Positions 24,001 to 30,000 of a DNA stretch of 64,000 nt are shown here, piece after piece. Position 1 is the stretch's first letter, and every line of letters starts with the position of its first letter. The DNA comes from Escherichia coli (GTDB lineage: Bacteria; Pseudomonadota; Gammaproteobacteria; Enterobacterales; Enterobacteriaceae), in NCBI RefSeq assembly GCF_030013595.1, contig NZ_CP122768.1; one strand, 5' to 3'. Position numbers: made by a program.

Positions 24001-27000
24001 CGCGTGGCTATCTCGATCAGGCCAAATCGCGCCCTAACCTGACCATTCGTACTCACGCCATGACCGATCACATCATTTTTGACGGCAAACGCGCGGTGGG
24101 CGTCGAGTGGCTGGAAGGCGACAGCACCATTCCGACCCGCGCGGCGGCGAATAAAGAAGTGCTGTTATGTGCAGGCGCGATTGCTTCACCGCAGATCCTG
24201 CAACGCTCCGGCGTCGGCAACGCTGAACTGCTGGCGGAGTTTGATATTCCGCTGGTGCATGAATTACCCGGCGTCGGCGAAAATCTTCAGGATCACCTGG
24301 AGATGTATCTGCAATATGAATGCAAAGAACCGGTTTCCCTCTACCCTGCCCTGCAGTGGTGGAATCAGCCGAAAATCGGTGCGGAGTGGCTGTTTGGCGG
24401 CACCGGCGTTGGTGCCAGCAACCACTTTGAAGCAGGCGGATTTATTCGCAGCCGTGAGGAATTTGCGTGGCCGAATATTCAGTACCATTTCCTGCCAGTG
24501 GCGATTAACTATAACGGCTCGAACGCAGTGAAAGAGCACGGCTTCCAGTGCCACGTCGGATCGATGCGCTCGCCAAGCCGTGGGCATGTGCGGATTAAAT
24601 CCCGCGACCCGCACCAGCATCCAGCGATTCTGTTTAACTACATGTCGCACGAGCAGGACTGGCAGGAGTTCCGCGACGCAATTCGCATCACCCGGGAGAT
24701 CATGCATCAACCCGCGCTGGATCAATACCGTGGCCGCGAAATCAGCCCCGGTGTCGAATGCCAGACGGATGAGCAGCTCGATGAGTTCGTGCGTAACCAC
24801 GCCGAAACCGCCTTCCACCCGTGCGGTACCTGCAAAATGGGTTATGACGAGATGGCAGTGGTTGACGCCGAAGGCCGCGTACACGGGCTGGAAGGCCTGC
24901 GCGTGGTGGATGCGTCAATTATGCCGCAGATTATCACCGGCAATTTGAACGCCACGACGATTATGATTGGCGAGAAAATGGCGGATATGATTCGCGGGAA
25001 GGATGCGTTGCCGAGGAGCACGGCGGGATATTATGTGGCAAATGGGATGCCGGTGAGAGCGAAAAAAATGAGTCGTGATGTGAACTGACTCAGGAACCTA
25101 TCAGATTGAGAGTTACCGTTCTACTATGAGGACCGAATCCTTATATAAAACACTGAGGTAACTCTCATGCTTCATCGTGACAATCTCGCCAGCAAATTCT
25201 AAGCTGACTTGCTCAATCTGGCTGATGAAGGTGCTATGCATACACAGATAAACTACAGATGAAATACCACTCAGCTTAAGAATTACGCCGCTAATGTTCC
25301 TGGCTATGGTTACCTGTTCATTCCCGCTCACGGTTAGCATGTACGAAAAGGGTTCTTGTAACGAGTACAAAAATAAGTCAGACCAAAACCACATGGAGCT
25401 TTAAACACAGCTCGTATAATTTATTAGCAGCGATTTATTTTTACGCTTCTTTAATTAATCATCATGCTTAAATATTTTTTAGCACACGATTATCGCTTCG
25501 CTAACATTTTATTTTACATTCATCATCAATTGATAATAAAAAATTGTTAATAATTTTTTGCAAAAAACAAAAAGTGTTGGAATACTCTCCATCAAATGAA
25601 TGCAAAATAAACAAATTGAGATATACAAAAAGTAAAAACCATTTAAATGAATATTTTTAATTTATGAGCAGAACCCATTAACAATGATTTACTCACGACC
25701 AGAAAAGTAAATAACACCTTGCAATAATATGTATTTATAAATTTATATCATTGATATTAAGCTAATCTTACTTTCTACCCTCCAAATTTATGCAGCAAAA
25801 AAAATAAAAGCAAAATCAATTGGATACACAACAAAGCAATCTCACAGGAAATGATGTTAAATATCTCAAAACTAATAAAAATTACTAAAAAATTAGACGT
25901 AACACACATCCCACACGCCCTGTAGCTCATAGCTTTTATATTTATTTTCTCACATCACTGTAGATAAAAACACGCATTAAAAATGACTTGTAGAAAAGCT
26001 GCACAATAAATAGTTCATATTTAGTCTGTTGCGTAGAACTACTATTCAAAAAATCTTATTAATGAGATAATGAGATTACATCGATAACGTTCTGATGGCA
26101 GGCATACTTATCTGGGTGTGCCTCTTTTTTTTACAACTGTACACGGTGGCGTATGACGAGAAAATATCTCACACAGGATGAAGTCTACAGGCTGATGGAT
26201 GCAGCCCAGAGCATGTCCTTTCCTGAAAGAAATCGCTGTCTAATTATGATGGCTTTCATTCACGGTTTTAGGGCCAGTGAACTTCTTGATTTACGTTTAT
26301 CCGATATTGATGCATCTGGAAAACAACTTAATATTCGGCGTATTAAAAATGGTTTCTCGACAACACATCCTCTTCTTCCTGATGAATATAATTTGATCAA
26401 GTTGTGGCTTAAGCAGAGGAAGTTAATTGAAAACGGAGTTGAAGGAGACTGGCTTTTTCTCTCCCGGAAACGCCGCCCTATCAGCAGACAACATTTTTTT
26501 TCTATCATTCGTGAGGCTGGAAAACGTGCAGGATTAGCTGTAAAAGCACATCCTCATATGTTACGTCATGCCTGTGGTTTTGCTCTGGCTGACAATGGTG
26601 TCGATACCCGACTACTTCAGGATTATCTGGGTCATCGAAATATTCAGCATACTGTCAGATACACAGCCAGTAATGCTGCTCGTTTTAAAGGGGTGTGGAA
26701 AAAAAAGCCTCGTTAAAACAGTACCTTCTGATTCAAAATGTCAGATTCCTACGTTTTCCTCAATTCTTCCATAAAAAAACAGCCCATTCAATTAAATAAA
26801 ACACATAACATGTTGATATTTCTAGCTAAAGTAAAATAATCCCATGATTTGAAATGATTAATCAAAAAGGTCATACCAGTGATTAACTTTCGCTCATATT
26901 GTTAAATAACACAAAATTAAAAACAATAAAAATCAAACAAATTAGATTTATATTCCAAGAAAATTAAATATTCAGGCTATTAAACCAAACCTGACATTTT

Positions 27001-30000
27001 GAATCAAAATGTCAGGTTTTGTAGCAATGGCGTGGACGAGTCTGAATGAAGAAGCCTCTGGTTATTATCAGTGCCTGTCAGTTCACCAGGCTGGCACTGG
27101 AGTCTCTCATCCCAACGGACAGGTATCTCGTGCGGGTGTACAGCAACGTCACTACAGAGGTTGAATTCATTTTAAAGACCTCCTGTGGCTACCTGTTAGC
27201 TGATATCCCTTCGCTTCCTTCGGGGGAGTTGGTTCTTCTGGCTTGTCTTGTCCGCTTGCGGAGTGATGCCGGGCAATGGCAGGTCTGCCTGACCGGTGAC
27301 TCCGACTGGTTCGATAATGCTCCTGCTGCAAGTCTGTACTACGGCTTCCCACGCATCGGCACCATGCTGACAGCGAGTCGTTATCAGAATCAAATTATCC
27401 GCTGGTTACTACGTCCTTTGCCCGGCGATATGAGCGATTTCTGGCTCCTGACTGCACGGGAGTTGAGCGTGCTTAAGATTCTGATGCAGGGCATGAGTTT
27501 CAGTGAGATTGCCCGTTATGAACAACGCAGTTCAAAGACCCTGCATGCGATTGCCACACGGGCATTAATGAAACTTGGACTGGGAACTCTGAGCGATTTC
27601 AGACTGCTCTATACGGGATGCGGTGACAGCAGAGTGAAACGGAATATACGGCTACATGCAAGATATGTCGGACAACATTCCGCTCATCGACTCACTCAGT
27701 ATGTGCAGAACATGGTATCCGGAATTCTTTATCCAGAGAAAGTTGCCGTTGGTGAATCAATAAATTCTGACGCCATTTCCGGAAAAGTACTTTCCGGACA
27801 AAGAAAAAATATGTCTAAAAAAAGACCAGGATTGTTATGACACAGCAGCGTTGTTACTACCCCCCACTGCGGCGCATACGGACTCGCTACAGTGTAGGAG
27901 CCAAAATATTTCTACTGCTCTGGGCTGCAGGATTGGGAGGCACGCTGTACAGCCTGTACAGCGTGCTGGCGTACTGACATCTGTGAGGGAAGGATGCGTT
28001 TCGTTCTTTTCTGTCCCTCAGGAATTGTACCAGCGCAGTTCGCAGCTCTATCAACCGGTTCTGTCGGCAATGTTACCTGCATCAGAACAGAAGAGGAGTT
28101 ACGCAATAAATTGCGGCACAGGCCACAGAGTGTCGTGATATCGGCAGGGCGACCTGCCGAATGCGCTGAAATGTGGTTCCGATTTTATCGGGATCACTCA
28201 TTCGTGGTGGTGTTGTGCGTCGCGCCCTTTTTTCTGCCACCGGATGTGAGTATTTCTGGCGTTCTCAAAAACCTGAGGTTACTGAAACCAGGAATGTCAG
28301 TAGAGCGTGTCATCAGTATTGCAAATGCCTCTGGTGGGTTTTCAGGACTGAAACATGCAGAAAATTTGCCAGTTATGGACAGTTACTCTGTCTTTATGAA
28401 AGAGGTGAATAACCGCACAAAGACAATCGTCATGTCAGAACGCTTCCCGGAAAAGCAAAAGAAGGTGTTGTCGTTACTTCTTGCCGGACACAGCTGGGAA
28501 TACAGTGCGCAATTTCTCAAAACGGGGATAAGACAGATATGGCTTACCGAGCAGTCGCTAAAAAAGCGTTGGGGAATACCGGACAGCATGTCATTGCGGG
28601 AAGCCCTGCTGCTTGGCAGCAATAAATTTCACGGTGATGGAAACGCATTGGAAACAACGAATGCCATGACATTGCGTGAAAACGGAAATACCAACAGGTA
28701 TTCCGTGGTGGTAAATGCAGGGACGCAGGCTTTATCTCTGCATAAATATAAATAAGTGGAAAATTGAAATTAGTTACCAGAATGGAGAATTTCTTCATGA
28801 AAAACAGTAAGGCATTTTACCGCAGCGCATTAGCAACAGCTATTGTTATGGCTCTTTCTGCACCAGCATTCGCTGCTGATAAAGCGGTATCAACTGATTC
28901 GGTTACGCTGAATAAAGATAAGACGACTCTGGATCAAGATGTTGTTATTAACAATACAGCAGACAAACAGATTACAGCCGTAACAATTAATGCGGCAGAT
29001 AAAGACCTTAATGTTACTTTTGGCGGTCATGATATTACTGCTGAATCAACGGCAGACAAAAAATTCGTTGAAGGTGTAAAAGTTAGCGGTAACAAAAATG
29101 TTGTGATTAATGCTACAGGCTCCACCATCACAGCTCAAGGTGAAGGTACCTATGTCCGAACTGCAATGGTCATTTCTTCAACAGGCGATGTTGTTGTTAA
29201 TGGCGGTAACTTTGTTGCAAAAAATGAAAAAAGTAGTGCGACAGGTATATCTCTGGAAGCGACCACGGGAAATAATTTAACGCTAAATGGTACAACCATA
29301 AATGCTCAAGGTAATAAGAGTTCCAGCAACGGCTCTACGGCAATTTTTGCTCAAAAGGGTAGCGTATTGAATGGTTTTAACGGTGATGCAACCGACAACA
29401 TTACCCTTGCTGGCTCAAATATTATTAATGGCCGGATTGAAACAATAGTTATTGCCAAGGAGAATACGGGAACTCATACAGTCAATCTGAATATTAAGGA
29501 TGGCTCAGTAATTGGGGCGGCTAATAATAAACAAACAATTTATGCCTCTGCTTCGGCACAAGAAAAAGGTTCAGCAACGCAAAATTTAAATTTGTCTGTT
29601 GCTGATTCAACCATCTACTCTGATGTCCTGGCCCTTTCTGCAAGCGAGAATTCAGCCGCTACCACAACAAATGTAAATATGAACGTTGCCCGCTCTTACT
29701 GGGAAGGTAATGCTTATACCTTCAATAGCGGCGATAAAGCGGGTAGTAATCTGGATATAAATCTTTCCGATAGTTCAGTCTGGAAAGGCAAAGCTTCAGG
29801 GGCAGGAGATGCCAGTGTATCTCTGCAAAACGGGTCTGTCTGGAATGTTACGGGATCCTCAACTATTGATGCTCTGGCAGTAAAAGACAGTACGGTTAAT
29901 ATCACGAAGGCTACGGTCAATACTGGCACGTTTGCTTCTCAAAACGGCACTCTGATTGTTGATGCCTCTTCTGAAAACACCCTGGATATCAGCGGTAAAG

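What the first reader, a model, noticed from the sequence alone, without database searches (positions are those of the whole stretch)
26717..27045. Putative recombinase-controlled invertible promoter switch (ipuS / fimS-like) upstream of a LuxR regulator and autotransporter
Perfect 16-bp inverted repeats (26729-26744 and 26991-27006) bound a ~280-bp AT-rich segment lying exactly between a FimB/FimE-family recombinase gene and a LuxR-family regulator gene, which is followed by an autotransporter adhesin. This is the arrangement of phase-variable switches (fim switch; ipuA-ipuS-ipuR-upaE and fimX-hyxR in uropathogenic E. coli). The right repeat sits inside a 33-bp perfect palindrome, an extra layer not required for a simple switch. 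The orientation (ON or OFF) captured here cannot be told from sequence alone.
Basis: partly seen in the sequence, partly recalled or inferred. Interest (0 to 1): 0.7.

Follow-up and report, generated by a model that had tools for sequence, protein, structure and literature searches.

The report
Known hyxS invertible promoter switch
This is hyxS, the already characterised flip-switch of E. coli that the FimX/IpbA recombinase inverts to control the hyxR-hyxA-hyxB genes; it is ordinary, except that public genomes show it can also be cut out cleanly, which I did not find described.

Summary
Perfect 16-bp inverted repeats (26729-26744 and 26991-27006) bound a 246-bp segment of 25% GC, which lies between a tyrosine invertase gene and a LuxR-type regulator gene.

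The element is hyxS of E. coli island PAI-X, not a new switch. The invertase is 100% identical to FimX/IpbA of strain UTI89. The switch is 98% identical to the UTI89 and CFT073 copies and lies in the same orientation. Published work shows that FimX inverts it.

Of the 1891 complete E. coli genomes that carry the locus:
- 1780 have the window's orientation.
- 15 have the exact flipped form, with breakpoints inside the repeats.
- 88 lack the element precisely.

The 33-bp palindrome is best read as a complete two-armed recombinase site. Its outer half is a direct 15/16 copy of the left repeat, and this predicts excision. The 88 scars carry both possible central bases (19 T, 69 A) on at least six flank haplotypes. 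Some of these haplotypes are identical to the intact UTI89 and CFT073 copies.

ON or OFF cannot be settled from sequence. The literature I could read suggests the window's orientation is OFF.

Verdict: already known and of low interest, with a modest side observation (self-excision) that I did not find in the literature available here.

The parts
26153..26716 (+). ipbA (= fimX, hbiF), a 187-aa tyrosine-type DNA invertase of the FimB/FimE subfamily
   Evidence: ORF found. NCBIfam NF007370 'tyrosine-type DNA invertase' scores 251.6 bits against a cutoff of 221. 100% identical to UTI89 FimX WP_001295805.1. Annotated ipbA in near-identical genomes.
26716..26728 (.). Degenerate outer arm of the left recombination site (AAACAGTACCTTC; 8 of 13 bases match the arm AAACCTGACATTT of the right site)
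   Evidence: Direct reading, and the repeat finder I1/D1. A similar non-coding stretch precedes the core in the Salmonella T1 switch and in a related (hyx-like) cassette. Its role as a half-site is inferred.
26729..26744 (.). IRL, the left 16-bp inverted repeat TGATTCAAAATGTCAG (near-symmetric core TGATTCA plus inner arm AAATGTCAG)
   Evidence: Identical in UTI89 and CFT073 and in flipped genomes. The breakpoints of natural inversions and excisions fall inside it.
26745..26990 (.). Invertible interior of hyxS, 246 bp at 24.8% GC, expected to carry the hyxR promoter
   Evidence: Found as its reverse complement (99.2% identity) between unchanged flanks in strain AVS0744 and in 15 complete genomes overall. 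Absent from 88 genomes.
26813..26840 (+). Sigma-70-like match TTGATA-16-AATAAT pointing towards hyxR in this orientation (a candidate only)
   Evidence: The count is no higher than in shuffles (1 found, 2.0 expected). The opposite strand holds two candidates with a TG-extended -10 element (TG just upstream of the -10 hexamer).
26991..27006 (.). IRR, the right 16-bp inverted repeat CTGACATTTTGAATCA
   Evidence: Exact reverse complement of IRL.
26987..27019 (.). Palindrome of 33 bp (16-nt arms, centre A at 27003), read as a complete two-armed core site (arms ..CTGACAT / ATGTCAG.. 11 bp apart)
   Evidence: (I2). The related cassette has the same pair of inverted arms with the same 11-bp spacing but an asymmetric centre. 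As RNA it folds to -25.8 kcal/mol, z = -6.
27000..27015 (.). Outer half of the palindrome: TGAATCAAAATGTCAG, a direct-orientation 15/16 copy of IRL that differs only at the central base
   Evidence: the repeat finder D1/D3. It is 271 bp from IRL, which is exactly the length missing in 88 genomes.
27046..27840 (+). hyxR, a 264-aa LuxR-family regulator
   Evidence: Pfam GerE helix-turn-helix at residues 135-181, E = 3.9e-6. Annotated hyxR in near-identical genomes.
27994..28755 (+). hyxA, 253 aa, with no recognisable domain
   Evidence: Annotated hyxA. No Pfam or NCBIfam match.
28797..31094 (+). hyxB (= upaB), a 765-aa autotransporter
   Evidence: TIGR01414 autotransporter beta-barrel domain, E = 2.8e-69. 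Annotated hyxB. hyxB is equated with upaB in PMC3789825.

Best explanation
[quoted passage not shown] The tyrosine recombinase IpbA/FimX, encoded just upstream, binds the two core sites and exchanges strands inside the 16-bp identical repeats. This flips the 246-bp AT-rich interior and so changes transcription of hyxR, and probably of hyxA and hyxB. Inversion is shown by the literature and by natural flipped genomes. The right-hand palindrome is inferred to be a complete site with two good recombinase-binding arms around the near-symmetric core TGAWTCA, whereas the left site has one good arm and one degenerate arm. The inner arms lie inside the repeats, so both orientations present almost the same sites. 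That fits the reported bidirectional switching. Only the central base pair of the core is asymmetric, so the right site can also pair with the left site in direct alignment. That would excise 271 bp irreversibly and leave a single site and a 58-nt gap between ipbA and hyxR. The window holds the majority (reference) orientation, which is probably OFF.
For: - Identity of the locus. The 2.8-kb region matches 1904 of 5426 complete E. coli genomes, where the genes are annotated ipbA, hyxR and hyxA. The context is betTIBA-ipbA-hyxRAB-ykgH. The invertase is 100% identical to UTI89 FimX, and the switch is 98.4% (UTI89) and 97.6% (CFT073) identical in the same orientation.
- Literature. hyxS has 16-bp repeats and only FimX inverts it (PMC6083910). 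Overexpressing FimX produces the hyxS inversion signal in UTI89 and CFT073 (PMC6458436). Inversion upstream of hyx was selected by phage in E. coli Mt1B1 and in E. fergusonii.
- Population survey. 1780 genomes have the window orientation. 15 have the flipped form at full length, with the interior 99.2% identical as reverse complement and the flanks unchanged.
- Core-site model. The related cassette changes both repeats together (TGGTTCA instead of TGATTCA) while keeping two inverted arms 11 bp apart at the right site. The Salmonella T1 switch keeps the core TGATTCAAAA.
- Excision. 88 genomes carry the junction ACCTTC-TGA[T/A]TCA-AAATGTCAGGTTTTG: 19 with T and 69 with A. They sit on at least six flank haplotypes. 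Clone D i14 has 0 SNPs against intact CFT073, and BCE049 and FDAARGOS_1303 have 0 SNPs against intact UTI89.
Against: - No experiment was done on this strain, so inversion here is inferred from identity to tested strains.
- The promoter was not located. The best sigma-70-like match points towards hyxR in the present orientation, which sits uneasily with calling that orientation OFF. In ST131 strain EC958, hyxR and hyxA mutants have LPS phenotypes, so this orientation may not be fully silent. I did not check EC958's orientation.
- The arm/core assignment and the role of IpbA in excision rest on sequence logic and population data only.
- The primary hyxS paper (Bateman and Seed 2012) could not be read.
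Confidence: 0.95

Rival explanations
1. The palindrome at the right repeat works mainly as an RNA or DNA hairpin. It could be a terminator or insulator that blocks read-through from ipbA into hyxR, or a binding site for a dimeric regulator such as HyxR itself, rather than a two-armed recombinase site.
For: As RNA it folds into a 15-bp stem of -25.8 kcal/mol (z = -6.0), followed by UUUUGU. It lies 27 nt upstream of the hyxR ATG. LuxR-type proteins often bind palindromes (general knowledge).
Against: The terminator scan reports nothing there. The hairpin-plus-U-tract is not conserved. The related cassette keeps the two inverted arms but has no U-tract, and the Salmonella T1 right site does not fold at all (-5 kcal/mol, z = +0.4). 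Half of the palindrome is the repeat itself, which recombination already requires. The excision junctions show that its outer half takes part in strand exchange.
Confidence: 0.15
2. The 88 switch-less alleles arose by recombinase-independent deletion (replication slippage or RecA-mediated exchange) between the two directly repeated 15/16 copies, not by IpbA-mediated site-specific excision.
For: Short direct repeats 271 bp apart are a classic substrate for slippage. No experiment links the deletion to IpbA.
Against: An A-type junction requires the crossover to fall in only 3 nt of shared sequence (TGA) to the left of the mismatch, against 12 nt to the right. Yet A-type junctions are found in 69 of 88 genomes and on at least 3 of the sampled haplotypes, against 4 haplotypes for T. 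One haplotype carries both types. That pattern fits staggered strand exchange around the central base followed by segregation of a heteroduplex. ipbA is annotated intact in all ten excised loci inspected.
Confidence: 0.2
3. The inverted repeats are a chance feature of an AT-rich intergenic region, and the segment does not invert.
For: None beyond the AT-richness of the region.
Against: It is the only 16-mer inverted pair within 2 kb in the window, and shuffles gave none. The exact flipped form is present in 15 genomes. The repeats are invariant in a lineage whose interior has diverged to 93.9% identity. Inversion has been published.
Confidence: 0.01

Closest known systems
hyxS, the FimX (IpbA/HbiF)-dependent invertible element upstream of hyxR in PAI-X of UPEC strains UTI89 and CFT073 (Bateman and Seed 2012, as cited in PMC6083910)
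   Same: Everything tested is the same: genomic position, gene order, identical recombinase protein, identical 16-bp repeats and palindrome, and an interior 97.6-98.4% identical in the same orientation.
   Different: Only strain-level SNPs. This is the same element in another E. coli strain; the closest genomes are pig isolates at 99.8% identity.
fimS, the type 1 fimbrial switch of E. coli (FimB/FimE; 9-bp repeats, 314-bp element)
   Same: Same recombinase subfamily, the recombinase gene next to a short AT-rich invertible promoter segment, and FimX also acts on fimS.
   Different: The repeats are 16 bp and unrelated in sequence. The inner binding arms lie inside the repeats, so the sites barely change on inversion. 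One recombinase rather than two. Only FimX acts on hyxS. The target is a regulator gene rather than a fimbrial operon.
ipuS, the switch controlling ipuR-upaE in CFT073 (PMC6083910)
   Same: A Fim-family recombinase next to an invertible element of about 260 bp, upstream of a LuxR-type regulator and an autotransporter.
   Different: ipuS has two recombinases (ipuA, ipuB), 7-bp repeats with one repeat inside the ipuA coding sequence, and is flipped by four of the five recombinases. Here there is one recombinase, IRL starts 12 nt after the stop codon, the repeats are 16 bp, and an extra gene (hyxA) sits between regulator and autotransporter.
Salmonella T1-antigen switch (STM0716 recombinase; PMC11294581)
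   Same: The recombinase is 72% identical. It has the same core TGATTCAAAA at both ends, a similar non-coding stretch before the left core, an interior of about 257 bp, and a HyxA-like gene downstream.
   Different: The arms differ (..GTTAA type). The right site is only loosely palindromic and does not fold. The cargo is a polysaccharide gene cluster rather than hyxRAB.

Membership tests
hyxS (FimX/IpbA - hyxR switch of PAI-X) | Lies between ipbA/fimX and hyxR, in the island inserted between betA and ykgH | tested here: met
   RefSeq annotation of a 99.8% identical locus, and of UTI89 and CFT073.
hyxS (FimX/IpbA - hyxR switch of PAI-X) | 16-bp inverted repeats bounding the element | tested here: met
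   Exact 16-bp repeats, and 16 bp is the length stated for hyxS in PMC6083910. The sequence is identical in UTI89 and CFT073.
hyxS (FimX/IpbA - hyxR switch of PAI-X) | The cognate recombinase is FimX and is intact | tested here: met
   187 of 187 residues identical to UTI89 FimX WP_001295805.1.
hyxS (FimX/IpbA - hyxR switch of PAI-X) | The segment actually inverts at the repeats | tested here: met
   Met at population level: 15 complete genomes carry the exact flipped form. Experimental inversion is reported. It cannot be tested for this individual strain.
hyxS (FimX/IpbA - hyxR switch of PAI-X) | The element carries the hyxR promoter, so orientation sets ON or OFF | tested here: inconclusive
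   Consensus scans find candidates on both strands, none above chance. The primary paper is not held.
Fim-type tyrosine-invertase promoter switches | Adjacent recombinase of the FimB/FimE subfamily | tested here: met
   NF007370 at 251.6 bits (cutoff 221) and NF007371 at 233.2 bits (cutoff 222).
Fim-type tyrosine-invertase promoter switches | Dependence on accessory DNA-bending proteins (IHF, Lrp), as for fimS | not testable with these tools
   I recall the Bateman and Seed 2012 abstract reporting that hyxR promoter inversion is independent of IHF. This is from memory and was not verified here.
ipuS (ipuA/ipuB - ipuR - upaE) | Two recombinase genes, 7-bp repeats with one inside the recombinase coding sequence, upaE downstream | tested here: not met
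   There is a single recombinase. IRL lies 12 nt after the stop codon. The repeats are 16 bp and the downstream genes are hyxRAB.
Intrinsic terminator (considered for the palindrome) | Stable stem followed by a U-tract, conserved in related loci | tested here: inconclusive
   The hairpin is strong (-25.8 kcal/mol) with UUUUGU after it. The terminator scan does not call it, and it is not conserved in the related cassette or in Salmonella.

The most novel reading that the evidence does not exclude
hyxS may be a three-state element rather than a two-state switch. Its right site is palindromic except for one central base pair, so the same recombinase can align it with the left site either way. It would usually invert the promoter but occasionally excise it for good. 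That would explain the 88 of 1891 complete E. coli genomes (many from poultry) that carry a clean 271-bp scar, with both possible central bases and on at least six haplotypes. I did not find this outcome described in the accessible literature for any Fim-family switch.
Probability: 0.45. Interest if true: 0.45.

Novelty: already known. Interest (0 to 1): 0.27.

Why it matters
The switch itself adds nothing new. hyxS has been linked in published work to nitrosative-stress tolerance, survival in macrophages, O-antigen chain length, serum resistance and, more recently, reversible phage resistance.

Two results from this check are useful:
- A population census of switch states in complete genomes: 94% in the reference orientation, 0.8% flipped and 4.7% excised, plus a few copies broken by insertion sequences.
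- A simple structural reason why this switch can delete itself: a right site that is nearly symmetric.

If the recombinase does cause the excision, lineages can permanently leave phase variation of hyxRAB. That would matter for reading phage-resistance and virulence phenotypes, and for anyone calling invertible elements ('invertons') from assemblies.

Tried and rejected
Related loci were obtained instead through a protein search and contig look-ups.
- Promoter and terminator consensus scans could not assign ON or OFF.
- Rfam found no RNA family in 25000-28500.
- NCBIfam has no model that hits HyxR or HyxA, and Pfam finds nothing in HyxA.
- Bateman and Seed 2012, Bateman et al. 2013 and Sarkar et al. 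2016 are not held. I could therefore not read the original ON/OFF definition or check for any earlier mention of excision.
- I considered that the excised alleles could be assembly artefacts and rejected this. The exact sequence shared at the junction is at most 16 nt, shorter than the k-mers that short-read assemblers commonly use (typically 21 or more; reasoned from the sequence, not tested). An A-type junction cannot arise from collapsing the 12-nt exact repeat. The alleles also come from many laboratories and sequencing platforms.
- I considered that the window might hold ipuS and rejected it (see the membership test).
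Full report
**Observation**

The sequence is as described.
- TGATTCAAAATGTCAG at 26729-26744 and CTGACATTTTGAATCA at 26991-27006 are exact reverse complements. The match stops abruptly at both ends.
- They enclose 246 bp at 24.8% GC, in a window that averages 48.4%.
- No other perfect 16-mer inverted pair within 2 kb exists in the 64-kb window, and 20 shuffles gave none.
- The right repeat sits in a palindrome with 16-nt arms (26987-27002 and 27004-27019) around A27003.

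**What it is**

A 2.8-kb query around the site matches 1904 of 5426 complete E. coli genomes. The features under the match are annotated ipbA ('tyrosine-type DNA invertase IpbA, also known as HbiF and FimX'), hyxR and hyxA.

The best match is 99.8% identical and shows the context ehaA-betTIBA-ipbA-hyxR-hyxA-hyxB-ykgH-ykgGFE-rclR. This is the small island PAI-X.

The proteins in the window fit this annotation:
- The invertase passes the curated NCBIfam cutoffs for tyrosine DNA invertases. It is identical in all 187 residues to FimX of UTI89.
- HyxR has a GerE/LuxR helix-turn-helix at residues 135-181.
- HyxA matches no family.
- HyxB has an autotransporter barrel domain.

The interior of the switch is 98.4% identical to UTI89 and 97.6% identical to CFT073. 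It is in the same orientation as both, with identical repeats and palindrome.

The accessible literature says the following:
- The element between fimX and hyxR is called hyxS, has 16-bp repeats and is inverted only by FimX (PMC6083910).
- Overexpressing FimX gives a hyxS inversion signal genome-wide in UTI89 and CFT073 (PMC6458436).
- Inversion upstream of hyx was selected during phage exposure in E. coli Mt1B1 (PMC12361893).
- The same was seen, reversibly, in E. fergusonii (bioRxiv 10.64898/2026.05.13.724931).
- hyxR and hyxA affect O-antigen chain length and serum resistance, and hyxB is the same gene as upaB (PMC3789825).

The finding is therefore a correct rediscovery of a known switch.

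**Evidence of inversion from public genomes**

I built the flipped form in silico and searched for both forms.
- The window form is present at 80% coverage or more in 1780 genomes.
- The flipped form is present at full length in 15 genomes.
- In strain AVS0744 the flanks are unchanged, both repeats are intact, and the interior is 99.2% identical to the reverse complement of the window's interior.
- Nine of the 15 flipped genomes have ipbA annotated intact, and their identities span 96.9-99.5%.
- The other six form a lineage in which ISEc8 has truncated ipbA, so the switch is locked in the flipped state.
- Two further genomes have an insertion sequence inside the switch.

**The palindrome**

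I compared related switches to interpret it.
- An 81%-identical invertase heads a related cassette: recombinase, HyxR-like protein (51% identity), HyxA-like protein (45% identity) and an autotransporter, at a different chromosomal site.
- In that cassette both repeats have changed together, to TGGTTCAAAATGTCAGAT. The right site again has two inverted arms (TATCTGACAT and ATGTCAGATA) exactly 11 bp apart, but its centre is asymmetric.
- The Salmonella T1-antigen switch has a 72%-identical recombinase and keeps the core TGATTCAAAA with different arms.
- The RNA hairpin formed by the palindrome is strong in E. coli (-25.8 kcal/mol). It is not conserved as a terminator-like structure, and the Salmonella site does not fold.

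My reading, which is an inference, is this. The right site is a complete core site with two good arms around TGAWTCA. The left site has one good arm (inside the repeat) and one degenerate arm (AAACAGTACCTTC, 8 of 13 matches). The inner arms are part of the repeats, so inversion hardly changes either site. This fits the 'bidirectional' switching reported for FimX at hyxS. fimS differs: there, sequences outside the 9-bp repeat swap on inversion and give FimE its directionality (discussion).

**A consequence: excision**

The outer half of the palindrome (27000-27015, TGAATCAAAATGTCAG) is a direct copy of IRL that differs only at the central base (D1/D3). The right site could therefore pair with the left site in direct alignment, and recombination would delete 271 bp. 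I searched for that product.
- 88 complete genomes carry it. The junction reads ...AACAGTACCTTC TGA[T/A]TCA AAATGTCAGGTTTTG..., and the gap between ipbA and hyxR is 58 nt instead of 329.
- 18 genomes match the T form exactly and 69 match the A form. The remaining genome (PapRG-06-5) is T-type with a flank SNP.
- I compared 2160 nt of flanking sequence. Clone D i14 (excised, T) has 0 SNPs against intact CFT073. BCE049 and FDAARGOS_1303 (excised, A) have 0 SNPs against intact UTI89. AVS0223 (T) and SA186 (A) are identical to each other.
- Three further haplotypes also carry scars: 2009C-3133 and 13P477T (A), Trh52 (T) and PapRG-06-5 (T).
- That makes at least six haplotype backgrounds, with T on four and A on three (one carries both). 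The deletions are therefore recurrent and derived, not ancestral.
- An A junction needs the exchange to fall in only 3 nt of shared sequence to the left of the mismatch. Its frequency argues against simple slippage. It fits staggered strand exchange on either side of the central base, which leaves a heteroduplex that segregates as T or A.
- ipbA is annotated intact in all ten excised loci I inspected.

The states add up to 1883 of the 1891 genomes with the locus (1780 + 15 + 88). The rest are broken by insertion sequences or otherwise rearranged.

I found no mention of excision or of the palindrome in the accessible papers. The primary hyxS papers could not be read, so I do not claim priority.

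**ON or OFF**

The window has the orientation of the UTI89 and CFT073 reference genomes and of 94% of genomes with the locus.
- Pointing to OFF: recombinase-null derivatives of CFT073 are described as 'hyxS locked OFF'. The inversion signal appears only when FimX is overexpressed. The E. fergusonii study interprets inversion away from the wild-type orientation as activation.
- Pointing the other way: the best sigma-70-like match (TTGATA-16-AATAAT, 26813-26840) faces hyxR in the present orientation, while the other strand has only two weaker candidates with a TG-extended -10 element. In ST131 strain EC958, hyxR and hyxA mutants have phenotypes, although I did not check EC958's orientation.

I rate 'present orientation = OFF' at about 0.65.

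**Verdict**

The element is already known, so interest in the finding as given is low. The side result is the census of switch states and the recurrent clean excision predicted by the near-symmetric right site. It is of modest interest to specialists and needs an experiment with fimX dosage to establish the mechanism.

Noticed in passing
window 26729-27015; loci L134-L143 (junction at about 3120 in L134-L137 and about 3017 in L138-L143): 88 complete E. coli genomes lack exactly 271 bp of hyxS, leaving one hybrid site. The junction's central base is T in 19 genomes and A in 69. The scars sit on at least six flank haplotypes, some with 0 SNPs against intact UTI89 or CFT073. Many of the isolates come from poultry.
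   Followed up: yes
L003 (Eco_24-2013) 1-1614, and hits H47-H52: In one lineage, mostly dog isolates, ISEc8 has truncated ipbA to its last 114 nt. In all six of these genomes hyxS is in the flipped orientation, apparently locked. In that lineage the right flank reads CAGATTTT, so the longer palindrome (31 bp) forms in the flipped state.
   Followed up: partly
L004 (E-93) 2924-4283; L005 (CUVET18-565) 1094-2735: Insertion sequences have landed inside hyxS: an ISVsa5 (IS4 family) element in E-93 and an IS3-family element in CUVET18-565. E-93 also has a second IS3-family element truncating hyxR.
   Followed up: partly
L129-L131, 4001-8567: A related hyx-like cassette sits next to acetolactate decarboxylase and synthase genes. 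It comprises an invertase 81% identical to IpbA, a HyxR-like protein (51% identity), a HyxA-like protein (45% identity) and a larger autotransporter. It has its own 18-bp repeats (TGGTTCAAAATGTCAGAT). The interior is 200 nt in L129 and 241 nt in L130 and L131.
   Followed up: partly
L127 and L128, 4656-4669 and 4926-4939: The Salmonella T1 switch has a second inverted pair (14 nt, 93% complementary). Its spacing is almost the same as that of the main repeats (256 against 257 nt), offset about 75 nt downstream. I did not examine its meaning.
   Followed up: no
window 27046-27840 and 27994-28755: HyxR's LuxR-type helix-turn-helix lies in the middle of the protein (residues 135-181 of 264) rather than at the C-terminus. 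No receiver domain was detected. HyxA matches no Pfam or NCBIfam family.
   Followed up: partly
window 26200-26213 and 27916-27929: A perfect 14-bp inverted pair links the 5' part of ipbA with the gap between hyxR and hyxA. About 0.5 such pairs are expected by chance in a window of this size, so it is probably fortuitous.
   Followed up: no
literature (PMC12922286): PAI-X (hyxRAB) is reported as strongly up-regulated in Kapi1 lysogens of E. coli MP1 whatever the growth medium, and the lysogens have altered LPS. A clonal difference in hyxS orientation between the lysogen and the non-lysogen could explain this. The authors do not raise this possibility in the passages I read.
   Followed up: no
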